Positions 14,067 through 31,563 of a stretch of DNA of 64,000 bases are shown here, piece after piece; positions within the stretch are counted from its first letter, which is position 1; the number at the start of each line of letters is the position of its first letter. This DNA is from Ekhidna sp. (GTDB taxonomy: Bacteria; Bacteroidota; Bacteroidia; Cytophagales; Cyclobacteriaceae). Both the position numbers and the translations under genes were made by a program. Under the pieces are notes generated by a model that saw nothing but the letters and a program-made list of their open reading frames with translations, did no database searches and was not told where the DNA came from. The stretch covers positions 1,658,365-1,722,364 of the forward strand of contig NZ_OZ245746.1 in assembly GCF_965227465.1 (NCBI RefSeq), in the 5' to 3' direction.

Positions 14067-14720
14067 CTATAATTTAGCCATTTGACCGATCAACGTTTGA
14101 GCGACATTATCTTTAATTGAATACCAAACCCCCTCAAGATTCACACAATTATTCACTGATTTTTTGCTTGGTTTTATTGATTCAAAATTGATTGAATAGA
14201 TTAGTTCCATCATATTTCTACCGGCTTCCCAATCGATTGACTGATTATCATTTACTAAAACCATTCTTTCCCAGAACTTCCATTTAATTTGAACTGCTTG
14301 CCCGTCAAGTTTTAGGTCCAATTGAAGCGGTAGTTCCAGTTGATCCCTCTCTACAATGGCTTGCATCAGTTCCTGAAATAACTTATCTGCTTTCTTGATT
14401 TCCTTTGGGAATCCCAACTCAGAGTCATTCACACTGATATGCAAATAAATTTCTGCATCCGGATCTTCCATTGACTTTAGCCTTGCAAATGATTCAATAT
14501 CTTTTTTCCAGTTAGGATTGAAATCACCTTTCCATGAATAATCATCATTCTCCGTAAAACCCTCGGACTTAACAGCATCAATAGAAATCAGATCACGATT
14601 GAGATATACAATTTCAAACTCCGTTTTAATTTGGTCACCTGAACTATCAAATTTCAAAACTGCAGCGTATGCGTAAGGGGGTGATAACAATTGAGGTTGG
14701 TAGGACAATGTTATTTTCAT
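14067..14720 (-). CDS. Hypothetical protein
   Basis: 217-aa ORF coupled to the menE stop (4-nt overlap); no recognised motif. Confidence 0.7.
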   Translation of the reverse strand: MKITLSYQPQLLSPPYAYAAVLKFDSSGDQIKTEFEIVYLNRDLISIDAVKSEGFTENDDYSWKGDFNPNWKKDIESFARLKSMEDPDAEIYLHISVNDSELGFPKEIKKADKLFQELMQAIVERDQLELPLQLDLKLDGQAVQIKWKFWERMVLVNDNQSIDWEAGRNMMELIYSINFESIKPSKKSVNNCVNLEGVWYSIKDNVAQTLIGQMAKL

Positions 14721-21452: not shown

Positions 21453-22607
21453 TTATAGCTTAGATTTTAAAATATTCATTTTCAGTTCAGTCTCTTCAAA
21501 TTCCTTGTGAGGATCTGAGTCTTCAGTGATACCCGCACCTGCAAAAAACCTCACTTGACCCTGGTCTATTTTCATGCACCTGAGGTTCACAAATAGATCG
21601 GTCGAACGTTCAACATTAACCGGACCAAGAAAGCCTGAATAAAACGCTCTGTCATAATTTTCTTCTTGCTGAATCCATGGCTTGGTATGTTCGATTGGCA
21701 TGCCACAGACTGCAGAGGTAGGATGCAACAGGTGAAGCATTTGATCCGCAAGCTCATCAAAATCTACTTCTGCATAATCAACGATGAATTCAGTCTTTAG
21801 ATGGGCCAGATTACCCGCCTGGATGGTTTTGGGCCCATGCTCATGAAATTCCCTTAAACGGATTTTTTTAAAGCAATTGATGATGTACCTGCTTACTAAT
21901 GCCTGTTCTTCAATCTCCTTTTGCGTCCAGGCAATCTCACTTAATTTATTGCCATTCGTCAGCGCTTTAGTGCCGGCAAGAGCCACAGTCTTAAACCGAT
22001 CGGTATCATTGGAAATCAGCAACTCAGGAGTAGCTCCTATCCAAAGTCCCTTTTCAGGAATATGCGTGATGCTACAAAAGGCATTCTCATATTTATCAGC
22101 AATAGATTCAAAAAATGACCAGGTCGTGAAGTTTGAAGGGAGTGGCTCATCACGGTAACGAGACAAGACTACCTTTTCGAAAGTGCCTTTTTCTATTTCA
22201 TCTAGTGCTTTACGAACAGATTTCTGGTATTCGCTTGATCCTGTTTCTTGCGCTACAGTTTTCTTAGTTGTCGGTTTACTAATTTGTATTCGTTCTTTGA
22301 ACGCATCAATTTCAGAATCCTGAACACTTGGACTTAGGGTAACCTTATCCGATTTGATCATGATATCGGCCTGGATGTAAAAAGGCTTAACCGGATGATT
22401 ATCAGCGTATTGATTAATAAGAAACCCGCTGTTTAGATCTTGGAGTTGAAATTCCTCCAGTTGCTCAACTTCTTTTAGGGAAATAAGCATATTGATTTCC
22501 GACTGTTGAGGCATCCGCCAGATTGCAAATGCATAACCGACCGCTTGAAGCTGATCGACCAAACGCTCCGGTTTACTCAGTTTTAATATGCTTAATAATT
22601 CTGTCAC
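21453..22607 (-). CDS. menF: Isochorismate synthase (chorismate-binding protein)
   Basis: KVVLSR, GATPELL, TVALAGT, KEIEEQ, LHPTSAVCG, NLRC and AGAGI...SDP..E..ET. Confidence 0.9.
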   Translation of the reverse strand: MTELLSILKLSKPERLVDQLQAVGYAFAIWRMPQQSEINMLISLKEVEQLEEFQLQDLNSGFLINQYADNHPVKPFYIQADIMIKSDKVTLSPSVQDSEIDAFKERIQISKPTTKKTVAQETGSSEYQKSVRKALDEIEKGTFEKVVLSRYRDEPLPSNFTTWSFFESIADKYENAFCSITHIPEKGLWIGATPELLISNDTDRFKTVALAGTKALTNGNKLSEIAWTQKEIEEQALVSRYIINCFKKIRLREFHEHGPKTIQAGNLAHLKTEFIVDYAEVDFDELADQMLHLLHPTSAVCGMPIEHTKPWIQQEENYDRAFYSGFLGPVNVERSTDLFVNLRCMKIDQGQVRFFAGAGITEDSDPHKEFEETELKMNILKSKL

Positions 22608-23041
22608 TTCTTATGCGCTAAAATAGCCATTGTTATCCGACTGATGGCTACCAACTCATTGTCGTCATTATGCACCTTAATTTCCCAGACATGTGTCCCA
22701 CGTCCCAGGTGTATGGGTTTTGCTGTACCCGTAACGAGACCACTTCGTGCCGACTTTATGTGATTGGCATTGATTTCCAATCCAACCGCATATGCTTCAT
22801 TCAGATCAATACATACGGTAGCTCCTACACTTCCCATGGTTTCTGCCAACGCTACAGACGCTCCTCCATGCAACAAACCCATCGGTTGCTTTGTTCGGTG
22901 ATCGACTGGCATGGTGGCTTTTAAGTAATCCGGACCAATTTCGGTGAATTTGATGCCCAGATGCTCAACCATGCAACCCTCTGACATATTGTTTAATGCC
23001 TCGAGTTGGAGGTAATCAGGAAAAATTCGTTCTTTTGCCAT
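22604..23041 (-). CDS. menI: Hotdog-fold thioesterase, DHNA-CoA hydrolase
   Basis: QPMGLLHGGASVALAET and VGLEINANH; position in the men cluster. Confidence 0.8.
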   Translation of the reverse strand: MAKERIFPDYLQLEALNNMSEGCMVEHLGIKFTEIGPDYLKATMPVDHRTKQPMGLLHGGASVALAETMGSVGATVCIDLNEAYAVGLEINANHIKSARSGLVTGTAKPIHLGRGTHVWEIKVHNDDNELVAISRITMAILAHKK

Positions 23042-23069
23042 CTATTTAGCAAACCAAGGTAAACACAGT

Positions 23070-23681
23070 TTGAAAAGCAAGACGATTTTTATACTTAGAC
23101 ACGGAGAGACCGATTTCAATAAGAATGGAATGGTGCAGGGGCGGGGGGTGAATGCCTCCATCAATGAAGCCGGAAAAGAGCAGGCCAGAAAGGCCGGAGC
23201 AACACTAGCGGACATTTCATTCGACCATGTATTTACTTCCGCTTTGATTCGCACAAAAGAAACGGTGGGCCAATTCATTCACAATGGAACACCCGTAACA
23301 TCCCTGGACGGATTTGATGAAATCAGCTGGGGCAATCAGGAAGGAAAAGAAGCTTCATACGATGCGAAAAACCTGTATGCGGATACGGTAAACGGCTGGC
23401 GTAGGGGAGAGCTTCACCTGAATGTGGGAGGGGGAGAAAATCCTATCGAAGTGATGGAACGACAGCAAACAGCAATGCAGCAGGTGTTAGAGACGGATGG
23501 TGAAAATATCCTTATTTGCATGCACGGAAGAGCGATGCGCGTACTATTGAGCTGGACGCTGAACTATCCCCTGAATTTCATGGATGGCTTCCCACATGCC
23601 AATTGCTCCTATTATGTGCTGGGATACCGTGGGAGCTCGTTTTACCTGAAGGATTTTAATAGGGTTGGGCATTTGAGTTGA
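23070..23681 (+). CDS. Histidine phosphatase (phosphoglycerate mutase) family
   Basis: LRHGETDFN, DEISWG, and CMHGR. Confidence 0.9.
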   Translation: MKSKTIFILRHGETDFNKNGMVQGRGVNASINEAGKEQARKAGATLADISFDHVFTSALIRTKETVGQFIHNGTPVTSLDGFDEISWGNQEGKEASYDAKNLYADTVNGWRRGELHLNVGGGENPIEVMERQQTAMQQVLETDGENILICMHGRAMRVLLSWTLNYPLNFMDGFPHANCSYYVLGYRGSSFYLKDFNRVGHLS

Positions 23682-23716
23682 CAGATGACTAAGTAAGGCC
23701 ATACGCTATATTGATT

Positions 23717-23728
23717 GTTGAGAAGCGT
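23717..23728 (-). repeat. attC-like inverse core (R'') directly after the stop of the 23729-24400 gene
   Basis: The - strand reads TAA ACGCTTCTCAAC AATCAATATAG. It is complementary (GTTGA exact, further G-T pairs) to GTTGATGGGTAT just upstream of the same gene. Confidence 0.45.
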
Positions 23729-24400
23729 TTAGTAGGGTTTAAGGTCAGTTCTTCCATTATCAATTATGTATTTTAAGAAATCTCTTCCAAGCCATGTAAT
23801 ATTAACAGTTTGGTCATCATTTATGATAACTAGTTCTTGCTTAATCAAGAAATCAAAGTATTGTTGGTATGGAAAATTTTTAAAAAGTTCTGGATTATTC
23901 TTGGCTGCATTTTCGTAAAAGAATTTCAATGATTCCACAGTCTCACCAGATGCTGAATTAAGATGTATAAGAATTTTTATTTGACTGCCATAAATAAAAT
24001 GGTATACCTGTTCAAAATGATGAACTGCAAGGAGAGCTTTAGAATAATTTATAAGATTGTTCACTTTTTCTGAATCGGTCTTGCATTCTTTGAGACCGCT
24101 CTGATCGTCAACCGCATTGCTAAATCTCATTATTGTATCATCGCTAAACATATGGAGTGCTCGTTCGAGTTGTTCAGCTTTGGTTTTAATATTTTCTTCA
24201 GACGTTTTCGACTCTTTAGTTGAGGCAGTTGAAGGAGATTCTTGAGAAAGTCTACCGGTTGCGTCAATTGAGTTTTTTCCAACACCAATTTTATTGACTC
24301 TGTTAATTAGATCTACTACAGGTTTTCTAAAAATAAGTGCTGCAGCAATGACACTAAGTGGCCATTTCAAAATTTCAAGTATTTCCAATGCTTGTTCCAT
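23729..24400 (-). CDS. Hypothetical cassette-like protein (N-terminal WP/TM anchor, helical C-terminal domain)
   Basis: KWPLSVIAAALIFRKP N-terminus; YGSQI and a C-terminal ITWLGRDFLKYI segment; AT-rich. Confidence 0.8.
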   Translation of the reverse strand: MEQALEILEILKWPLSVIAAALIFRKPVVDLINRVNKIGVGKNSIDATGRLSQESPSTASTKESKTSEENIKTKAEQLERALHMFSDDTIMRFSNAVDDQSGLKECKTDSEKVNNLINYSKALLAVHHFEQVYHFIYGSQIKILIHLNSASGETVESLKFFYENAAKNNPELFKNFPYQQYFDFLIKQELVIINDDQTVNITWLGRDFLKYIIDNGRTDLKPY

Positions 24401-24409
24401 ATACCCATC

Positions 24410-24529
24410 AACTTTGATGTTAACGCCATATGGCGTTAACTACCTTTCAAATATAGTGGTTGTGTCCTTTATCCCGCTATATAGAAGTAAAAGCTCTATA
24501 GGTTATCATCCTTCCGTATGGCCAGCTTT
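24410..24529 (-). repeat. Dispersed ~120-bp structured element, copy A
   Basis: Aligns end to end with 28035-28153. Contains a 22-bp perfect palindrome GTTAACGCCATATGGCGTTAAC, the ATATAGTGG..CCGCTATAT inverted repeat, a - strand TATATTTG box (24448-24455) and a terminal GTT (24412-24410). Confidence 0.9.
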
Positions 24530-24536
24530 CAACGCC

Positions 24537-24560
24537 CATGTTGGTGTTTTCACCAACATG
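24537..24560. repeat. REP-like hairpin upstream of RAYT
   Basis: CATGTTGGTG-tttt-CACCAACATG, an inverted counterpart of 25112-25135. Confidence 0.8.
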
Positions 24561-24578
24561 AAATGGTTAAATTAGAAT

Positions 24579-25100
24579 GTGAATTTCCCTACTGAGCATC
24601 CTCAATTCATCACAATAACTGTTTTCGAGTGGAAGCACTTGCTGAAACCGGATAAGTACAAAGAACTCATTCTGGATAGTCTTGAATTCCTTGTTAAGGA
24701 AAAGAGAGTAGAAGTCTATGGATTTGTGATTATGAGCAATCACTTTCACCTCATTTGGCAGATACAAGAACCTCATAGAAGAGAAGCTGTCCAGCGTGAC
24801 TTTCTTAAATATGTGGCGCAGCAAATAAAGTTTGATCTGATTGATAATCATCCTGAAGTGCTAAAGCATTTTCAGGTAAACAAGCAAGACCGTAAGTGTC
24901 AGTTTTGGAAAAGAAATGCACTTTCGACTGACCTGTATTCTTCGGATGTCCTCACTCAAAAACTTGACTACATCCATGATAATCCTGTCAAGGCTGGTTT
25001 ATGTCAATTGCCTGAGGATTACTATTTTTCCTCAGCTCGATTCTATCTGCAAAACAAGAATGAGTTTGGTTTTTTGTCTCACTATGACGGTGATGAATGA
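24579..25100 (+). mobile_element. REP-associated tyrosine transposase (RAYT/TnpA-REP, Y1 HUH family)
   Basis: QFITIT, YGFVIMSNHFHLI (HUH), FWKR, KLDYIHDNPVKAGL and Y.FSSA; GTG start; flanked by inverted hairpins. Confidence 0.9.
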
Positions 25101-25111
25101 GGTTTATTTAG

Positions 25112-25135
25112 TTTGTTGGTGACAACACCAACAAA
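25112..25135. repeat. REP-like hairpin downstream of RAYT
   Basis: TTTGTTGGTG-acaa-CACCAACAAA, followed by GGCGG that mirrors CGCC before the upstream hairpin. Confidence 0.8.
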
Positions 25136-25169
25136 GGCGGAACCAACTATTATATCTTCTTTTTTACTA

Positions 25170-25610
25170 TCAAAATTCTCTTACAAAACGCACATTGGTA
25201 ATCAACCCGTTTTCAACTTTATAAATAGAAATATACTTGGTCTTTTTGCCATCATTTGTAACCAACTCGTGATTGATTACATAAGGGCCATTTTCCATTT
25301 GATTAACAATTTCAACAGCCACCAATTTATTATCGAAATCTGATTTAAAAATGGAGGCTAATCTATCCGACCCTTTTCCCATTAGCTTATCAGGGTATGT
25401 GTACACTTTCAAATCTGCATGATACAGTTTTATAAACTCATCGTAATTGTTCGCATTGAAAAGGGCCATTCTTTTGTTAACCACTTCCAGTGCAGTCAAA
25501 TTAGATTTCTCTGCTGATGGAGCTGAGGCACTATTTCCGTTTGTATCAGGTTTTTCATTGCACGCTATTATTAGTAGCATCATTAAACCCATAATTTTAA
25601 TTTTTCTCAT
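25170..25610 (-). CDS. SnoaL-like/NTF2-fold lipoprotein
   Basis: Lipobox LIIAC; FNANNYDEFIKLY, VINHE and IYKVENGLI motifs. Confidence 0.8.
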   Translation of the reverse strand: MRKIKIMGLMMLLIIACNEKPDTNGNSASAPSAEKSNLTALEVVNKRMALFNANNYDEFIKLYHADLKVYTYPDKLMGKGSDRLASIFKSDFDNKLVAVEIVNQMENGPYVINHELVTNDGKKTKYISIYKVENGLITNVRFVREF

Positions 25611-25620
25611 TGTCCTGTGT

Positions 25621-26232
25621 TTAGTTATTTGGGAAATCTTTATTATTTAGAATCTGCTTGATCTGTTGTAAATGACGTTCTGAATGTGAAGACATATAGA
25701 GCAAAAGTTGATAGGCATCTGCAGAACCAAAATTCACAAAATGGTTTCTTAAGTCGTCTGTGGTTGTTCTGATATACTCAATATGTTTTTCGCGTTTATC
25801 CTTAAATTCTATTACCGTTAAACTATGATTGCCATACTTTCCGGTTGGCTCAAATTCTTCGGTCGTTTTCGTACTACTGGTGCGATCAGATACATGTGCC
25901 ATCAATTCACTATCGGTAAAGCGTAGGTCCTTCCGTCTTTCCGGATCGGCTGGGAGCTTCAAGGACTCCTCGAGCACGTCAAACATCACATTTTCGAAAA
26001 GAGTAATATGCTCCATGCACTGGGCAATTGACCATGACGATTCGTTACTTTTAAAATTGAGTTGCTCCTCACTTAGGCCATTAATTGTATTGAGTAGGCT
26101 ATCTCTGGAACTTACTAACTCGTTAATAGCAAAATCCCGTTCTTCCTTTGTTAGTTCAGTCCCGGAAGTAGTAGAACATTGTGCGAATAAGATTAGAACA
26201 CCCATTAAAATTATTGTTGGAATTCTGGTCAT
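25621..26232 (-). CDS. DinB family protein with signal/lipoprotein leader
   Basis: GLSEEQLNFK...WSIAQCMEHI and SSHSERHLQQI. Confidence 0.85.
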   Translation of the reverse strand: MTRIPTIILMGVLILFAQCSTTSGTELTKEERDFAINELVSSRDSLLNTINGLSEEQLNFKSNESSWSIAQCMEHITLFENVMFDVLEESLKLPADPERRKDLRFTDSELMAHVSDRTSSTKTTEEFEPTGKYGNHSLTVIEFKDKREKHIEYIRTTTDDLRNHFVNFGSADAYQLLLYMSSHSERHLQQIKQILNNKDFPNN

Positions 26233-26249
26233 TGTTATTGGGTTATAAA

Positions 26250-26777
26250 CTATTTGATTTTTATCATTCTTTGAGTTACACCCTTCTCCATGAGATAGTT
26301 GACCATCTCAGCAGATTCGCCAATTTGCGCATGATGTAGTAAGGTGAGACCATGAGGTCCTTTTGCAAATAATAGCTCAGGGTACGCTTCCAGCGTTGGT
26401 TTCACCAAATCTGTTTTCCCTAGCATGGTTAGTGTAAAAAGGTTGGCTCTGGCGCCTAGAGAAAGTAGATAATTTACAATTTCCTTTTGGCCCAAATGTG
26501 CCGCGCCTTCAATGGCTTCTTCAAAGTCACCATCACCCCAATCATAAGATGCATAAATTAAGTTGGGATGCTCGCTGAGCATTTCTTTGACCAGTTCCAA
26601 TTTGGAATGCCCGGCAATCACAAAACTCTTAACCAATTTTTCATCTAATTGATCCGCTTCTTTTTCTTTCGATTTCATGAGTATGGCGGATGGAACAGCT
26701 ATGGCTGCCCCGAGTCCTACGATTGACCCATAGATAAATTTTTTTCTATTCATAATTATTGAACCTTCCACTATCAT
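26250..26777 (-). CDS. Ankyrin-repeat-like secreted protein (likely start 26753, MNRKKF)
   Basis: Tat-like leader; GAAHLGQKEIVNYLLSLGA and HGLTLLHHA repeats. Confidence 0.75.
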   Translation of the reverse strand: MIVEGSIIMNRKKFIYGSIVGLGAAIAVPSAILMKSKEKEADQLDEKLVKSFVIAGHSKLELVKEMLSEHPNLIYASYDWGDGDFEEAIEGAAHLGQKEIVNYLLSLGARANLFTLTMLGKTDLVKPTLEAYPELLFAKGPHGLTLLHHAQIGESAEMVNYLMEKGVTQRMIKIK

Positions 26778-26876
26778 GCACTAGCTGTGCATAACAAAAT
26801 TGTATGGGACAATAATCAGTGATAAAAGAATTGAAAACTATAAGCAACGTGTTTCCTTGAATGGAAAATAAACGGT

Positions 26877-27878
26877 TTATCCTTTTCTATAGACGGAAGG
26901 CGTTAATCCGGTTTTTTTCTTAAACGCAACATTAAACGAGGTGACGTTTGCAAAACCAGACTCGTAAGCAATGGTGGCTATTTTCTCATTGTCATACTTC
27001 GAATCCTTTAATAGAATTTCGGCTTTTTCGATGCGATACTGATTTACAAATTCGTAAAAATTTTGATCCGTATTTTCATTTATGACCTGCGAGATTTCGC
27101 GGGATTTCACACGTAATTTTTCAGAGACTACATTCAGTGTAAGACCTTCATCCAAATAGGTGTGCTCGGTTTCAAAGAGTTTTTTTACTTTTTGAAAAAG
27201 GATTCCAGAACTCTTTTTATTTAGGTTAGAGCTATCATACTTCTGAAGAGTAAACTTTTGGCGATTTAAAAAAAGATAACTCAAACCATAAATCAACATG
27301 GAGTAAAATATGGGTCCCGTAATGTAGTATACGGTAAAATCGAAAAAATTTCCAACATAGTGAAACCAAATAAGTGTCGCACCAATTAAGATATTTCGAT
27401 ACCACCGGGCGATACTTAGTGATACGTGTAATCGATTTTTATACAGATAAGACCAGGAGAGTATCAGGTAAAATAGTAAATGAAAAACGACAACTCCATA
27501 ATTCCAAAAGGATTCAAAATTTCCCTGCCTTGGCACGAATGGAATTAAAAACAGAAACAAAATGAAAGGTACAAAATGGATGTAATCTCTTAATGTGAAT
27601 GATTTATTTTTCTCAAAGAGCGATAATCCATAAAGCCACAAAGAAGGCGCAGCAAACAAAATTCCTGAAATGCCAATGTTGTTCTGCCAATTCGCCAAAG
27701 GAACATAATGGTTTAGTACAGATTTACCAACCCTAATGGTTAGGCCTAATAAAAACAGAGCTAAAAGAATATTGGATTTCTTGTTTCCTTTTTTGAGTGT
27801 GAATAGATAGAAGCTTAAAAAAAGACCTTGCGCCAAGCCGAGAGATGCCAGAATCAGAATGAGACCATTTGTTAACAT
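26877..27878 (-). CDS. AraC family regulator with N-terminal multi-TM sensor
   Basis: About 7 TM segments, then LTL..VSEKL, NFYEFVNQYRIEKA, IAYESGF and FNVAFKKKTGLTPS.YR. Confidence 0.9.
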   Translation of the reverse strand: MLTNGLILILASLGLAQGLFLSFYLFTLKKGNKKSNILLALFLLGLTIRVGKSVLNHYVPLANWQNNIGISGILFAAPSLWLYGLSLFEKNKSFTLRDYIHFVPFILFLFLIPFVPRQGNFESFWNYGVVVFHLLFYLILSWSYLYKNRLHVSLSIARWYRNILIGATLIWFHYVGNFFDFTVYYITGPIFYSMLIYGLSYLFLNRQKFTLQKYDSSNLNKKSSGILFQKVKKLFETEHTYLDEGLTLNVVSEKLRVKSREISQVINENTDQNFYEFVNQYRIEKAEILLKDSKYDNEKIATIAYESGFANVTSFNVAFKKKTGLTPSVYRKG

Positions 27879-28034
27879 TTATTAGAGGTCCTTAATTTGA
27901 TATAATGGATAGACAATGAAGTGGTGTATTAATAGAAACAAAATTTCAAAATTATATCGACAAGTGCTTTAAAGAACATGTTCCTTTGAATAAAGGTTAC
28001 TATTTATTTATTTATTGTTTTTTAAATGCACTAC

Positions 28035-28153
28035 AACTATAATGTAAACGCCAGGCGTTTATCTATCTTTCAAATATAATGGCTGTGTCGTTTACCCCAC
28101 TATATAGAAGTAAAAGCTCTATTAGGGTATCGCCCTTCCGAATGGCCAGCTTT
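28035..28153 (-). repeat. Dispersed ~120-bp structured element, copy B
   Basis: Same orientation as copy A. Contains TAAACGCC-a-GGCGTTTA, ATATAATGG..CCACTATAT, TATATTTG (28071-28078) and a terminal GTT (28037-28035). Starts 12 nt after the stop of the 28166-28966 gene. Confidence 0.9.
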
Positions 28154-28165
28154 TGGAAAAGCTAT

Positions 28166-28966
28166 TTAGAACGTAATGGTGAATCCGGAAATTATATTAT
28201 TGTACAATTTGTCGATAGGTACGGTAGGAGTAGGATCATAAATGTTTTGGTAGATCAATGATAAGCCTACAATCTTGCTAAACTGGTACGTAAATCGAGA
28301 GCTGGAAGCAAATCGAGGGGTAGAAACCAGCTCATCGAACCGGCTTTGGTAATACACGCTAATGTCCAGGAATATTTTATCGAAGGGTGCATATTTTAAG
28401 CTGGCGTATGATCCGAGTTTAATATTTTCTGTTTCAATGGGCGTGGTATCTGCAATTGCTTCTGTATTTGCTACACCGTCAAAATTCCATCGTTCAAATT
28501 CATAGAATGGGCCAATACCTACAAAGAATCCCAATGTAGGCCTGTTTACAATCCTCCATCTGCTGTTCACTCCAAAGGCATATTTGCGTTCCATTCCTCG
28601 TGCTTCCGCCCAATGGACCTGGCTGTAAAATTCAATGGATTGTTTTTTCTCCATCACATTTCTGTATTCAGCATAGATGTACCCGCCGCTAACCAACGTT
28701 TCATCACCAAACTTCGAAAGTTCGATCTTGTTTGCGACCGTAAGTGCGTTTTTTCCAACTTTTGCGGATAAATCTGCCGTATTCTCAAAAGAGAACAGGT
28801 CTTTTCTCAGGTTTTTATAATTGAAATCTGGAACAATTGAACCCTTCATTCTTCTGGTTGAATCCAGAATAACCGTAAAACTTTCTGTGTGAAGTATTTG
28901 AGCTTGAACCGGAGAAAAAATCTGTAAAAAGACAAGCAGCAATGAGATTCTTAGCAGTGTTTTCAT
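28166..28966 (-). CDS. Outer-membrane beta-barrel protein, DUF481-like
   Basis: Signal peptide, amphipathic strands and terminal Phe. Confidence 0.65.
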   Translation of the reverse strand: MKTLLRISLLLVFLQIFSPVQAQILHTESFTVILDSTRRMKGSIVPDFNYKNLRKDLFSFENTADLSAKVGKNALTVANKIELSKFGDETLVSGGYIYAEYRNVMEKKQSIEFYSQVHWAEARGMERKYAFGVNSRWRIVNRPTLGFFVGIGPFYEFERWNFDGVANTEAIADTTPIETENIKLGSYASLKYAPFDKIFLDISVYYQSRFDELVSTPRFASSSRFTYQFSKIVGLSLIYQNIYDPTPTVPIDKLYNNIISGFTITF

Positions 28967-29048
28967 TTTGTTAGAAATCTATAAATGGAAAAATGTTTTA
29001 ACAAGGTATAAAAACAGCAGATTATTTCTGGTTGGCATTTGCAATGAG

Positions 29049-29074
29049 GTCATCCCGCACTTGTTGCGGGATCT
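29049..29074 (+). repeat. 26-bp GTCA-stem-TCT REP-like hairpin
   Basis: GTCA TCCCGCA cttgt TGCGGGA TCT. Confidence 0.75.
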
Positions 29075-29090
29075 TCAAAAGTTGATAGAA

Positions 29091-29123
29091 AATCCTGACA
29101 GGTTTTCAAAACCTGTCAGGATT
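29091..29123. repeat. 33-bp perfect palindrome overlapping the helicase stop codon
   Basis: AATCCTGACAGGTTTT-c-AAAACCTGTCAGGATT. Confidence 0.85.
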
Positions 29124-31296
29124 CCTTCGATTCCTTTGACTGAGCATGCGCAATCCCCATCTTAATCTCACCCCAGGTGTAGCTATCGGGTAATGCTCCT
29201 TTGATCTCACCAGACTTGGTCAGGCCTTCATCATAGCATTTTAGGATCGCCTTGAGTTTGGTTGGTTTTACAAACTGAGCAGCATCCAGATCGCCACTTT
29301 CGACATACTTGGCCAAATGAGACTCGATGGTTCCTTCCACCAAACCACGCTCTTCTGCAATGACCTTAATGGATTTCCCTTCCTTATACATCTTATAGGT
29401 GATCTCGGCAGTGGGTGTTTTGTCCTTAGAAGCAGCCTCATTGACTTGCTTGGTAGATGCGTGCTTTTGCAAAGCTTCCTTTGTCAATGGCTTGCCTTCG
29501 TTGATGTGCTGGATCAGCAAATTGAGTTTTACGATTTGCCTCAGCTGATTACTGAACAGATCTTTTAACTCCACTAACTCAGCCCGATAGGTCTTGGCCT
29601 GTGATTGGGTTTTCAAAGTCCGATGCAGTTGAGTTATCCGATCTATTTTATCTGTAAGATGCTCGGTGAAGTAATCAGATGCTTTGGTCATCCGCTCAGC
29701 TAATTGATGCCATTCTCCCTTAGATAAGAGCGAATTGACCTGTCGTATAAAGGTTTGTCCAACCTCTTTCAAGGGAAAGGTATCATTAATCAGTTCATCC
29801 GTCCACGGTAGCTGTTTTTGCTTCAGGGATCGGTTTTCGTCCTTGTTAAACGTCTTTTTATGATTGACCAATTCTCTCAGCAGTGGATCAAAGAGAAAGG
29901 CACGTTCCGCAAACATCCGAATGAATCCAATTCGATCGTTTTCGAATTGCTTCTCCAGCTTTTGAGTATCCTCAAAGCTCTCTATGAAGTATTTGAGTTG
30001 CTCATCAATGGAAGGAGATCGCTTGGGTAGGGGACTTGAAAGTATCAGTCCATCTAATGAAGTAAGTCTGGAAAGAGCAACATAGAGCTGACCAGCCGCA
30101 AACGTATTTTCCAGATCGAGTATAGCTTTCTCGAAGGTCAGACCCTGACTTTTGTGTATGGTCACGGCCCACGCCAGCTTAACCGGGTATTGTTTGAATG
30201 TGCCGAGTACCTTCTGTTCAACCTCCTTGGTTTCTTTGTTCAGTACATATCGAACATTTTCCCATTCGTATTGCTCTACGGCTACTTCCGTTCCATCTTC
30301 AAATTTGACCTTGATGCCATCTTCCAAACTGGATACTTTTCCGATCTTTCCGTTGAAGAACTGTCCTTTACCACTGGGGTCATTTTTGATGAACATCACC
30401 TGAGCATCTTCCTTTAGTCGGAGGTTCACCTCATTGGGATAGGCATTTTCAGGAAATTCTCGATCGATATCAGCGGTAAAAAGCTGATCCCTACCGTCCA
30501 GATCAGCAAGCCTGGAGGTATTGATTTTATCTGCTTTTTGATTGTGCGTAGTAAGGTGAATGTATCCCTCCAGATTCTTGTCAGCTACTTCTGCATCATA
30601 GTGATCATTCAGCAGTTCCACATCGTCTTCCAATAGCTCATTGTGTCTCAGACGGTTGAGTAGCTTAATAAATGTCTCATCCGTTTGCCGGTAGACCTTA
30701 TTCAGTTCAACCCGAATGGGAGGGTTGTCCTTCAGAACCCGTGCATCAAAAAAGTAAGGAGACGCATAAAATTGTTGCAGGAGGCTCTGCTCTTCTCGCT
30801 TGACCACCGGAGGAAGCTGCATCAAATCACCTATAAATAAGACTTGCAGTCCGCCAAAGGGATCAAACCGCCTTTTCCTCAAGTGACGCAAAGTCGCATC
30901 AATGCAGTCTAGTAGATCTGCACGAAGCATACTCACCTCATCAATAATCAGGAGCTCCAGTTCATTGATGAGCTTCCTTTTTTGTGCTCCAAATTTTGCC
31001 TCTCTGAAAAGGGAAGCGGGGGTATTGACCTGAATGTTTCGTTCTGAAAACGGAATCTCTTCCGGCACGAAAGCGCCAAAAGGCAACTGTAGCAACGAGT
31101 GTAGGGTAACTCCTTCCGCATTGATGGCTGCAATACCTGTAGGAGCTGCTACCACCGCATTTTTGTAGGTGTTTTTGACAATACTTCGAAGGAAGGTCGT
31201 CTTGCCGGTACCGGCTTTTCCTGTGAGGAAAATGTGACGATTGGTGCTGTTTACGTAATTGGCAGCTAGCTCTGCAGCATCACTGAATTGATTCAT
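29116..31296 (-). CDS. PIF1/RecD-like SF1B helicase with C-terminal helix-turn-helix
   Basis: TGKAGTGKTT, APTG.AA, IIDEVSM, GDLMQLPP, LAWAVTIHKSQGLT, YVALSR and a C-terminal IAEERGL..GTIESHL. Start moved to MNQFSD because the upstream in-frame part is REP-derived. Confidence 0.9.
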   Translation of the reverse strand: MNQFSDAAELAANYVNSTNRHIFLTGKAGTGKTTFLRSIVKNTYKNAVVAAPTGIAAINAEGVTLHSLLQLPFGAFVPEEIPFSERNIQVNTPASLFREAKFGAQKRKLINELELLIIDEVSMLRADLLDCIDATLRHLRKRRFDPFGGLQVLFIGDLMQLPPVVKREEQSLLQQFYASPYFFDARVLKDNPPIRVELNKVYRQTDETFIKLLNRLRHNELLEDDVELLNDHYDAEVADKNLEGYIHLTTHNQKADKINTSRLADLDGRDQLFTADIDREFPENAYPNEVNLRLKEDAQVMFIKNDPSGKGQFFNGKIGKVSSLEDGIKVKFEDGTEVAVEQYEWENVRYVLNKETKEVEQKVLGTFKQYPVKLAWAVTIHKSQGLTFEKAILDLENTFAAGQLYVALSRLTSLDGLILSSPLPKRSPSIDEQLKYFIESFEDTQKLEKQFENDRIGFIRMFAERAFLFDPLLRELVNHKKTFNKDENRSLKQKQLPWTDELINDTFPLKEVGQTFIRQVNSLLSKGEWHQLAERMTKASDYFTEHLTDKIDRITQLHRTLKTQSQAKTYRAELVELKDLFSNQLRQIVKLNLLIQHINEGKPLTKEALQKHASTKQVNEAASKDKTPTAEITYKMYKEGKSIKVIAEERGLVEGTIESHLAKYVESGDLDAAQFVKPTKLKAILKCYDEGLTKSGEIKGALPDSYTWGEIKMGIAHAQSKESKES

Positions 31297-31563
31297 GGAG
31301 CGAAGATTGAATAAGATTGTGCAATATACCATGTCATGCCGTGCTCGACACGGCATCTTCAATTTTACTCATTCAGAAAATGGGAAACAAGTCGCTAACA
31401 GCACTTCGAATTACTTCAGTAGTAAAAAGTTGATCTTAGATTCCGAAACAAGCCTGCCTGCAGCATCACTGAATTGGTTCATGGAGCGAAGATTGAATTA
31501 TATTGTGCAATATACCGTGTCATGCCGTGCTCGACACGGCATCTTCAATTTTGCTCATTCAGA
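31272..31563. repeat. 106-bp direct duplication (31272-31377 and 31458-31563; period 186)
   Basis: Five mismatches. Each copy includes the helicase ATG region and a GTCA hairpin (31333-31358, 31519-31544). Confidence 0.9.

What the first reader, a model, noticed from the sequence alone, without database searches (positions are those of the whole stretch)
24410..28153. Twice-repeated ~120-bp element: promoter, palindromes and GTT core (portable attI-like site?)
Seen: two same-orientation copies (24410-24529, 28035-28153) 3.6 kb apart. The terminal palindrome shows compensatory changes (TTAACGCC/GGCGTTAA versus TAAACGCC/GGCGTTTA). Both keep an ATATA(G/A)TGG-N14-CC(G/A)CTATAT inverted repeat, an invariant CTATATAGAAGTAAAAGCTCTAT core, an AAAGCT..AGCTTT outer stem and a TATATTTG -7 box pointing into the downstream gene. 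Similarity stops at a GTT placed 4 nt past the palindrome in both copies, and each copy sits 5' of an accessory gene. No integrase is in the window. Inference: this is a mobile promoter plus recombination site that captures and expresses cassettes in trans, or a MITE. Recombination between the copies would excise the RAYT plus the four-gene AraC module. This is the best candidate here for an undescribed system.
Basis: partly seen in the sequence, partly recalled or inferred. Interest (0 to 1): 0.8.

Follow-up and report, generated by a model that had tools for sequence, protein, structure and literature searches.

The report
Orphan integron-like docking sites with promoter
The two 120-base repeats are copies of the promoter-carrying docking site of a Bacteroidota gene-cassette system that works like an integron, here sitting far from its recombinase and bracketing a captured four-gene block.

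Summary
There are two direct copies (24410-24529 and 28035-28153), about 83-85% identical, and they are the only full copies in this 4.26-Mb Ekhidna genome. They work on the minus strand.

Their last ~50 nt form a module: a Bacteroidetes sigma-A -7 box, a hairpin whose arms covary, a 7-nt spacer, then GTT. In 51 of 80 related loci from Cytophagales and Flavobacteriaceae, this module lies on the stop codon of a Xer-like tyrosine recombinase. That recombinase heads arrays of small genes separated by ~240-bp attC-like repeats.

From the module's GTT onward, the sequence is complementary to the far end of the first cassette's own attC-like site (11 of 12 bases, against 6.3 for non-cognate pairs). 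The GTT is therefore the crossover point, which makes the module an attI equivalent with a Pc-like promoter.

Ekhidna genomes carry 1-12 modules. Most are orphans placed after housekeeping genes.

The window locus is a small, partly decayed orphan array. A recently mobile RAYT unit has inserted into it; the RAYT is not the cause of the repeats.

The published relative is rAID-1, and this scan has met the system before on other DNA. Recombination activity and the promoter are inferred, not shown.

The parts
28035..28153 (-). Copy B: the resident module-type docking site at the head of the local array. Contains the GTT crossover (28035-28037), the hairpin (28045-28061), the -7 box TATATTTG (28071-28078) and a ~75-nt upstream extension (28079-28153).
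   Evidence: R1 covariance-model hit at 66.5 bits. Orthologous copies occupy the same position after the 266-aa gene in G006, G013 and G023.
24410..24529 (-). Copy A: a second, internal module-type site. Contains the GTT (24410-24412), the hairpin (24420-24439), the -7 box (24448-24455) and an upstream extension (24456-24529).
   Evidence: R1 hit at 61.8 bits. Hairpin alone -9.6 kcal/mol, z -4.9.
25143..28034 (-). Captured multi-gene cassette: AraC-family regulator (26877-27878), ankyrin protein (26250-26777), DinB-like (25621-26232) and SnoaL-like (25170-25610). It starts TTGTAGTGCAT at copy B's GTT.
   Evidence: Pfam hits. A 65%-identical homologue in the groEL array of G036 starts GTTGTAGCTCAT directly after an attC-like site. 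The start follows the canonical pattern GTT-N6-[CT]AT.
24530..25141 (+). 612-bp RAYT unit: REP-associated tyrosine transposase gene (24579-25100) flanked by its own inverted hairpin pair (about 24537-24560 and 25112-25135). It is inserted against the left edge of copy A.
   Evidence: NCBIfam NF047646, 82.6 bits against a cutoff of 80. Hairpins. A 99%-identical copy with the same ends exists in G023, and this genome has a single copy.
23729..24400 (-). Second cassette gene: 223 aa, with no family hit. It starts 9 nt after copy A's GTT.
   Evidence: No homologue in 150 other genomes of the family.
23678..23723 (-). Truncated attC-like site (5' part only, model positions 7-51), directly after the 223-aa gene. 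It marks the distal end of the array.
   Evidence: nhmmer E 0.002 within the window. The same truncated site occurs at the same place in G006.
28166..28966 (-). Conserved 266-aa secreted protein with no family hit. It is the fixed gene after which the docking site sits in four species.
   Evidence: About 94% nucleotide identity between species.
29116..31362 (-). PIF1-like helicase with an HTH_40 domain: the conserved left flank of the locus.
   Evidence: Pfam hits. Syntenic in G006, G013 and G023 at 87-88% identity.
22604..23681 (.). Conserved right flank: a convergent histidine phosphatase gene (+, ending at 23681) and a thioesterase (-, 22604-23041).
   Evidence: 73-75% identity between species.

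Best explanation
**What the copies are.** Each copy is a module-type recombination site of the Bacteroidota integron-like cassette system. It is the equivalent of attI fused to a Pc promoter.

**Layout, read on the minus strand.** A ~75-nt lineage-specific extension holds extra copies of the hairpin arm. Then comes a sigma-A -7 box, with the predicted start near 24443 (copy A) and 28066 (copy B). Next is an 8-11-bp hairpin conserved in structure rather than sequence, then a 7-nt spacer, then G|TT.

**How it most likely works (inferred).** A Xer-like tyrosine recombinase encoded elsewhere exchanges strands at G|TT. In this genome the candidate is the gene at genome position 992702-993862, about 690 kb from the window. 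Circular cassettes are thereby inserted directly downstream of the site, and the site's promoter transcribes them.

**Reading of the window.** Copy B is the resident site after the 266-aa gene. The AraC-ankyrin-DinB-SnoaL block, together with copy A at its 3' end, entered as one unit by site-by-site recombination at the GTT. That left copy A to drive the former first cassette (the 223-aa gene). A RAYT unit then inserted next to copy A. The array is old and partly decayed.

**Shown:** family membership of the site, its position on the recombinase gene's 3' end in relatives, hairpin covariation, and the crossover position.

**Inferred:** recombinase action in trans, promoter activity, and the order of events that produced two copies.
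For: 1. **Arrays.** In G026, G028 and G036 a 294-296-aa recombinase is followed by the module (overlapping its stop codon) and then more than 18 kb of co-oriented small ORFs, each followed by a ~240-bp attC-like repeat. The repeats have covarying terminal inverted repeats and AAC...GTT ends.
2. **Position on the recombinase.** The covariance model finds the module at the recombinase 3' end in 51 of 80 loci, from Ekhidna to Cellulophaga, Tamlana, Tenacibaculum and Flavivirga.
3. **Hairpin covariation.** 95.9% of cells are paired, 6 of 8 pairs change on both sides, 126 cells show double changes, and 0 of 500 shuffles reach this.
4. **Crossover position.** In 7 of 10 module-to-attC cassettes, including orphan ones, the 12 nt from the module's GTT match the reverse complement of that cassette's own attC 5' end at 10-11 of 12. 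attC-to-attC cassettes average 10.15; non-cognate pairs average 6.33 (n=3306). In 40 of 40 cassettes positions 1-9 match perfectly and position 11 is a fixed mismatch. Both window junctions show the same GTT-N6-[CT]AT start.
5. **AraC cassette.** Its homologue in G036 begins GTTGTAG after an attC-like site.
6. **Synteny.** The locus is syntenic in four species, with different cargo between the site's GTT and the histidine phosphatase gene.
7. **Promoter.** The conserved box varies only at the two free positions of TAnnTTTG, the sigma-A -7 consensus at -12 to -5 (PMC9723704).
8. **Co-occurrence.** Of 42 Ekhidna genomes, 21 have both module and recombinase, 11 have neither, and 10 are discordant.
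9. **Repeated module-type sites.** Direct repeats of module-type sites bracketing genes recur in G010, G020 and G023.
Against: - No experiment or read data support recombination or transcription.
- This genome's own array recombinase is only 49% identical to those that carry this module. Its proximal hairpin has different arms, so the acting enzyme is uncertain.
- Six Ekhidna genomes keep modules but have no recombinase at E<=1e-60.
- The 223-aa cassette start matches the adjacent truncated attC 5' end at only 7 of 12, and the AraC block has no attC-like site of its own.
- Cassettes bounded by two module-type sites show no start/end complementarity, so how such units circularise is unknown.
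- G.T wobbles in the hairpin favour the sense strand (18 against 6). This fits an RNA-level role as well as, or instead of, a DNA-level one.
Confidence: 0.72

Rival explanations
1. The element is only a duplicated promoter plus 5'-leader hairpin (for example an mRNA-stabilising 5' stem-loop) shared by a set of accessory genes, with no part in recombination.
For: The conserved TAnnTTTG box would place the transcript start 4-5 nt before the hairpin. Wobble pairs favour the sense strand, 18 G.T against 6 A.C. A gene start follows within 20-90 nt in most copies.
Against: The module marks the exact point where cassette-specific complementarity begins. It sits on the recombinase stop codon in 51 of 80 loci. 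The cargo downstream differs between species at syntenic sites while the module itself stays. An invariant AT at +11/+12 lies on the cassette side, just as it does at attC junctions. A leader role may coexist with recombination but cannot explain these points.
Confidence: 0.1
2. The second copy arose by ordinary segmental duplication or by homologous (RecA) integration of foreign DNA carrying a homologous 120-bp stretch, not by site-specific recombination. The sites are fossils that no longer function.
For: The copies are only 82.5% identical, and all five known 120-nt elements are 80-90% alike with no clear parent. The array is decayed: a truncated attC-like site, a RAYT insertion, and no cognate attC-like site for the AraC block. 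The same arrangement is the only one found in public assemblies.
Against: Similarity between the copies ends precisely at the GTT, and both junctions carry the canonical cassette start. The AraC cassette homologue in G036 starts at the same GTTGTAG after an attC-like site. Pairs and series of module-type sites bracketing genes recur in other genomes.
Confidence: 0.15
3. The repeats are REP-like substrates of the neighbouring RAYT, or the ends of a MITE or IS element.
For: On the minus strand the hairpin is preceded by GTAG in copy A, as in E. coli REPs (my own knowledge of REPs). A RAYT gene abuts copy A. A truncated RAYT also abuts an internal module in G020.
Against: The RAYT has its own inverted hairpin pair of unrelated sequence. 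The 612-bp unit is 99% identical in G023, where it is not next to a module. The genome has only 2 full and 4 core copies. No inverted partner or target duplication was seen. Modules occur in genomes and loci without RAYTs.
Confidence: 0.03
4. The shared 120 bp is an operator/promoter region bound by the AraC-family regulator encoded after copy B, which would control itself and the 223-aa gene.
For: An AraC-family gene lies downstream of copy B. The upstream extension contains direct and inverted arm-like boxes.
Against: The same 120-nt element is conserved at the orthologous site in G006, G013 and G023, which have no AraC gene there. The boxes copy the hairpin arm and covary with it in other lineages.
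Confidence: 0.03

Closest known systems
Integron attI site with Pc promoter (class 1 attI1/Pc; sedentary chromosomal integrons such as the Vibrio superintegron)
   Same: A recombinase-proximal docking site where cassettes enter by crossover at G|TT. A promoter reads into the array. Cassettes end in imperfect palindromes whose 5' end (..AAC) is complementary to the cassette start (GTT..). Accessory arm repeats lie upstream of the core site. Cargo consists of small orphan genes and toxin-antitoxin genes.
   Different: The recombinase lacks the IntI-specific domain. The site lies at the 3' end of a co-oriented recombinase gene, not upstream of a divergent one. The site contains a covarying hairpin. 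The attC-like sites are ~240 bp and carry their own promoter-like boxes. The site occurs 1-12 times per genome, mostly without a recombinase beside it, and can also serve as the repeat between cassettes.
rAID-1, recombinase-associated acquired interbacterial defence clusters of Bacteroidales (Ross et al. 2019, bioRxiv 10.1101/471110)
   Same: A XerD-family tyrosine recombinase heads a long co-directional gene array. [quoted passage not shown]
   Different: It was described in gut Bacteroidales with immunity-gene cargo. No crossover point, hairpin covariation or orphan sites were reported in the text I read. I did not test whether the Bacteroidales motif is homologous to this module. Several Bacteroidales loci lack a recognisable module.
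CALINs (clusters of attC sites lacking an integron integrase; IntegronFinder, PMC9024848)
   Same: Cassette clusters located away from any integrase, as at this locus and after groEL and accC in relatives.
   Different: CALINs are defined by attC sites only. Here the orphan arrays begin with an attI-like, promoter-bearing site. IntegronFinder 2.0 reports only one complete integron in Bacteroidetes proper (Salinibacter ruber M1) besides those in Chlorobi and Ignavibacteriae, so this system escapes it.
REP elements and RAYTs
   Same: Short structure-conserved hairpins next to a Y1 HUH transposase gene.
   Different: The RAYT here has its own unrelated hairpin pair and is a separate 612-bp insertion. 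The module is low-copy and tied to a tyrosine recombinase of the Xer/IntI type.

Membership tests
Classical integron (IntI / attI / attC) | Integrase carrying the IntI-specific additional domain | tested here: not met
   TIGR02249 scores 193-217 bits, below its cutoff of 265, and matches in two stretches. NF040815 passes (225-228 against 220). In the PDB, XerA (4a8e, 5hxy) scores best and IntI4 (2a3v) matches in two stretches. No recombinase lies in the window.
Classical integron (IntI / attI / attC) | Crossover at G|TT, with the cassette start complementary to the 5' core of its own attC | tested here: met
   10-11 of 12 match for 7 of 10 module-headed cassettes. The mean is 10.15 for 48 attC-headed cassettes against 6.33 for non-cognate pairs. 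Positions 1-9 are perfect in 40 of 40. For the window's 223-aa cassette the match is only 7 of 12.
Classical integron (IntI / attI / attC) | attI next to, and upstream of, a divergently oriented intI, with Pc reading into the cassettes | tested here: not met
   The site lies at the 3' end of a co-oriented recombinase gene. In the window it stands alone. The promoter-like -7 box reading into the cassettes is present.
Classical integron (IntI / attI / attC) | attC sites: imperfect palindromes of about 57-141 bp, conserved in structure rather than sequence | tested here: inconclusive
   The terminal inverted repeats covary between subfamilies, but the sites are ~240 bp with conserved interiors. 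The window holds only a 46-nt fragment.
rAID-1 (Ross et al. 2019) | XerD-family recombinase heading a co-directional array with repetitive intergenic sequences and a distinct motif just 3' of the recombinase stop | tested here: met
   Met for the Ekhidna arrays when compared with the paper's description. Not met inside the window, which has no recombinase.
rAID-1 (Ross et al. 2019) | Cargo of orphan immunity genes against interbacterial toxins | not tested
   The window cargo is an AraC regulator, ankyrin, DinB-like and SnoaL-like proteins and a protein with no homologue found. No immunity-gene comparison was run.
REP / RAYT system | Many dispersed copies of the palindrome, with an inverted pair flanking the RAYT gene | tested here: not met
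   The genome has 2 full and 4 core copies. The RAYT is flanked by a different hairpin pair.
MITE / IS terminus | Terminal inverted repeats, target-site duplication, multiple near-identical copies | tested here: not met
   All copies are single and direct, with no inverted partner within 3-kb loci. The copies are 80-90% alike.
Known RNA family (Rfam 15) | Match to a curated covariance model | tested here: not met
   No hit at gathering score in the window. Only chance-level hits elsewhere in 23600-28400.

The most novel reading that the evidence does not exclude
In Cytophagales and Flavobacteriaceae, the integron-like system is a distributed network rather than a single locus. One Xer-like recombinase would serve up to a dozen promoter-bearing docking sites planted after housekeeping genes such as groEL and accC. 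The docking site itself would be portable and could replace attC as the boundary between cassettes. Its structure-conserved hairpin could act twice: as a recombination signal in DNA, and as a 5'-terminal stem-loop on every captured gene's mRNA.
Probability: 0.4. Interest if true: 0.75.

Novelty: new variant of a known kind. Interest (0 to 1): 0.58.

Why it matters
Classical integrons are reported as nearly absent from Bacteroidota (PMC9024848). Yet this phylum has a parallel cassette system run by a simpler Xer-type recombinase. So far it is described only as rAID-1 in gut Bacteroidales.

This finding defines the docking site of that system at base resolution: a -7 box, a covarying hairpin, a 7-nt spacer and G|TT, with a fixed AT at +11/+12. 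It shows that the site is conserved across two orders. It also shows that most copies are orphans heading secondary arrays.

That gives an explicit substrate for a recombination assay and a search model for annotating these arrays. It also explains the variable gene islands found after housekeeping genes in marine Bacteroidota.

Tried and rejected
- **Rfam.** Nothing at either the gathering or the E-value threshold.
- **MITE or high-copy repeat.** Rejected on copy number.
- **GGGCGTTG before copy A as the remnant of an attC 3' end.** Rejected. The same end closes the 99%-identical RAYT unit in G023 at a different site.
- **Module hairpin as the RAYT's REP.** Rejected.
- **A cognate attC 5' core for the AraC cassette.** None found in the window or the genome.
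- **266-aa gene plus copy B as a cassette in its own right.** No site was found upstream of that gene in this genome, G006 or G013, so this is left open.
- **Parentage of copy A.** All five elements are equally distant from one another.
- **Homologues of the 223-aa protein, to compare junctions.** None in 150 genomes of the family.
- **Alternative arrangements in public assemblies.** Only the same arrangement was found.
- **Start/end complementarity in arrays bounded by module-type sites (G010).** Absent.


Full report
**1. The observation**

The two copies are real. They lie at 24410-24529 and 28035-28153, in the same orientation. BLAST gives 85% identity over 121 nt; a global alignment of the core gives 82.5%. 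The invariant 23-mer occurs twice in the window, where none is expected. The complete 4.26-Mb genome holds no further full copy. Rfam has no match.

Gene layout shows that the element works on the minus strand. Copy A ends 9 nt before the ATG of a 223-aa gene (23729-24400). Copy B lies between a 266-aa gene (28166-28966) and an AraC-family gene (26877-27878).

**2. A shorter module is the conserved unit**

BLAST in relatives found full-length copies in only three other species. It also found many hits to the last ~50 nt.

Read on the minus strand, this module is:
- TATATTTG, then AAAGGTAG;
- a hairpin whose arms resemble ATAAACGCC / GGCGTTTA;
- about 7 nt, then GTT.

The hairpin arms covary. 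In 29 Ekhidna copies, 93% of cells pair, 34 cells change on both sides, and 0 of 500 shuffles reach the observed value. This genome has four such modules. Genes downstream of modules are unrelated to one another: lipoproteins, antitoxins, a Doc toxin, an OLD-like ATPase, a methylase and AraC-type regulators.

**3. What lies upstream of the modules**

Upstream neighbours are conserved housekeeping genes: groEL, accC, an FtsX-like permease, a GNAT acetyltransferase and a photolyase. In three genomes the upstream gene is a 294-296-aa tyrosine recombinase whose stop codon lies inside the module. This genome has the same housekeeping genes without the module. The module and what follows it are therefore insertions.

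**4. Cassette arrays**

Downstream of modules lie ~240-bp repeats. They have AAC at the 5' end and GCGTT at the 3' end. Their terminal inverted repeats covary between subfamilies, and each has an internal promoter-like box.

In G026, G028 and G036 the recombinase is followed by the module and then more than 18 kb of co-oriented small ORFs, each followed by such a repeat. This genome has a ten-site array at 984296-991896, next to a 386-aa recombinase at 992702-993862. It has twenty such sites in all.

The recombinase passes NCBIfam NF040815 ("site-specific tyrosine recombinase/integron integrase"). It falls below the integron-integrase model and matches it in two stretches. In the PDB it is closest to XerA, and it matches IntI4 in two stretches. 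It is therefore Xer-like and lacks the IntI-specific domain.

**5. The module is the recombinase-proximal site across two orders**

Record titles identify the genus as Ekhidna. They show the recombinase family in Cytophagales, Flavobacteriaceae and Bacteroidales, with 491 confirmed loci.

The sequence after the stop codon shows the same architecture in genus after genus, with different hairpin arms. A covariance model finds the module at the recombinase 3' end in 51 of 80 loci. In that set 95.9% of cells pair, 6 of 8 pairs change on both sides, and 126 cells show double changes.

The box varies only at the free positions of TAnnTTTG, the sigma-A -7 consensus at -12 to -5 in flavobacteria (PMC9723704). 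This predicts transcript starts near 24443 and 28066.

**6. The GTT is the crossover point**

| Cassette class | Matches between the 12 nt from the GTT and the reverse complement of the cassette's own attC-like 5' end |
|---|---|
| Module-headed (10 tested, orphans after groEL, accC and others included) | 10-11 of 12 in 7 of 10 |
| attC-headed (n=48) | mean 10.15 |
| Non-cognate pairs (n=3306) | mean 6.33 |

In 40 of 40 cassettes positions 1-9 are perfectly complementary, and position 11 is a fixed mismatch with A on the cassette side. All 29 Ekhidna modules carry an invariant A and a nearly invariant T at +11/+12.

Both window junctions (GTTGTAGTGCAT and GTTGATGGGTAT) fit this pattern. A 65%-identical homologue of the AraC cassette in the groEL array of G036 begins GTTGTAGCTCAT directly after an attC-like site.

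**7. The window locus**

The locus is syntenic in G006, G013 and G023. The order is helicase, 266-aa gene, element, variable cargo, histidine phosphatase, thioesterase, menF. Cargo differs in every species.

In this genome and in G006 the array ends in the same truncated attC-like site, which in the window is at 23678-23723.

The helicase / 266-aa / element block is 87-94% identical between species. The core genes on the right flank are 73-75% identical.

**8. The RAYT is a bystander**

The gene at 24579-25100 is a REP-associated tyrosine transposase. It has its own inverted hairpin pair. The 612-bp unit at 24530-25141 is 99% identical in G023, with the same ends but different neighbours. It is single-copy in this genome. 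It therefore inserted against the left edge of copy A after the two copies already existed.

**9. Why there are two copies**

Pairs and series of module-type sites that bracket one to four genes recur in G010 (six copies of a ~190-nt element), G020 and G023. Module-type sites can therefore also act as boundaries between cassettes.

The simplest account is this. A circle carrying the AraC block, with a module-type site at its 3' end, recombined at G|TT with the resident site. This explains three things:
- the direct orientation of the copies;
- similarity that ends at the GTT;
- the divergence between the copies.

This account is an inference. The five known 120-nt elements are all 80-90% alike, with no clear parent. 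Cassettes bounded by module-type sites show no start/end complementarity.

**10. Distribution**

Twenty-seven of 42 Ekhidna genomes have 1-12 modules. Twenty-five have the recombinase, usually in one copy. Twenty-one have both, eleven have neither, six have modules only and four have the recombinase only. Related genomes are not independent, so this is not a statistical test.

This genome's recombinase has a proximal hairpin with different arms, followed by GTTAGTAGC. That sequence matches the first attC-like 5' end at 9 of 12. Which enzyme serves the four ATAAACGCC-type modules of this genome is open.

**11. Which strand folds**

G.T wobbles in the hairpin favour the sense strand (18 against 6 A.C). 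This would suit a 5'-terminal mRNA stem-loop. The fixed mismatch at attC-like junctions is mostly A.C on the top strand, which is G.T on the bottom strand. A dual role for the hairpin is possible but unproven.

**12. Comparison with what is known**

The system works like an integron, but it fails the defining integrase test and differs in site position and size.

[quoted passage not shown] IntegronFinder 2.0 reports only one complete integron in Bacteroidetes proper (Salinibacter ruber M1) besides those in Chlorobi and Ignavibacteriae.

This scan has found the Bacteroidota integron-like system at least eight times on other DNA.

The following were new to me:
- the base-level anatomy of the docking site;
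- its conservation across Cytophagales and Flavobacteriaceae;
- the predominance of orphan copies;
- its use as a repeat between cassettes.

**13. Limits**

No alternative arrangement was found in public assemblies. No experiment has been done. Recombinase action in trans, promoter activity and excision of the 3.6-kb block are inferred.

Noticed in passing
window 24530-25141; L054:7003-8045 (G023): A 612-bp unit (a RAYT gene plus its inverted hairpin pair) is 99% identical in another Ekhidna species. It lies in the same variable locus there, with 1.7 tandem copies, while the flanking core genes are about 75% identical. This suggests recent transfer or transposition of a RAYT, a gene class usually regarded as domesticated. 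A truncated RAYT also abuts an internal module in G020 (L057, about 14300-14490).
   Followed up: partly
own genome 984296-993862 (L047), outside the window: A complete integron-like array: a 386-aa Xer-like recombinase, a proximal hairpin followed by GTT, and ten ~240-bp attC-like sites that separate small ORFs with no family hits. Ten further attC-like sites lie elsewhere in the genome, including a partial site downstream of groEL at 1486959-1487067.
   Followed up: partly
attC-like repeats, e.g. own genome 986209-986455 and 1300639-1300884: Each ~240-bp attC-like site has a conserved interior with a TTG-N19-TAnTTT promoter-like box near its 3' end. Every cassette may therefore get its own promoter, unlike in classical integrons.
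   Followed up: no
window 28023-31306 against L052, L053 and L054: The PIF1-like helicase, the 266-aa secreted protein and copy B are 87-94% identical among four species. The neighbouring core genes (histidine phosphatase, thioesterase, menF) are 73-75% identical. Either the constraint is unusually strong or the block has been exchanged between species.
   Followed up: partly
They are unrelated in sequence to the hairpins that flank the RAYT.
   Followed up: partly
left edges of module-type elements: window 24530/25142; L057 about 11150 and 14490; L017; L030: Several extended module-type elements are immediately preceded by GTT. This hints that the element itself may have been inserted by the same recombination. 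Copy B and its orthologues are not preceded by GTT.
   Followed up: no
L024 and L034 (accC loci of G030 and G012): About 100 nt of recombinase 3' coding sequence survives between accC and the module. These genomes have no recombinase at E<=1e-60, so the arrays appear to have lost their recombinase by deletion.
   Followed up: partly
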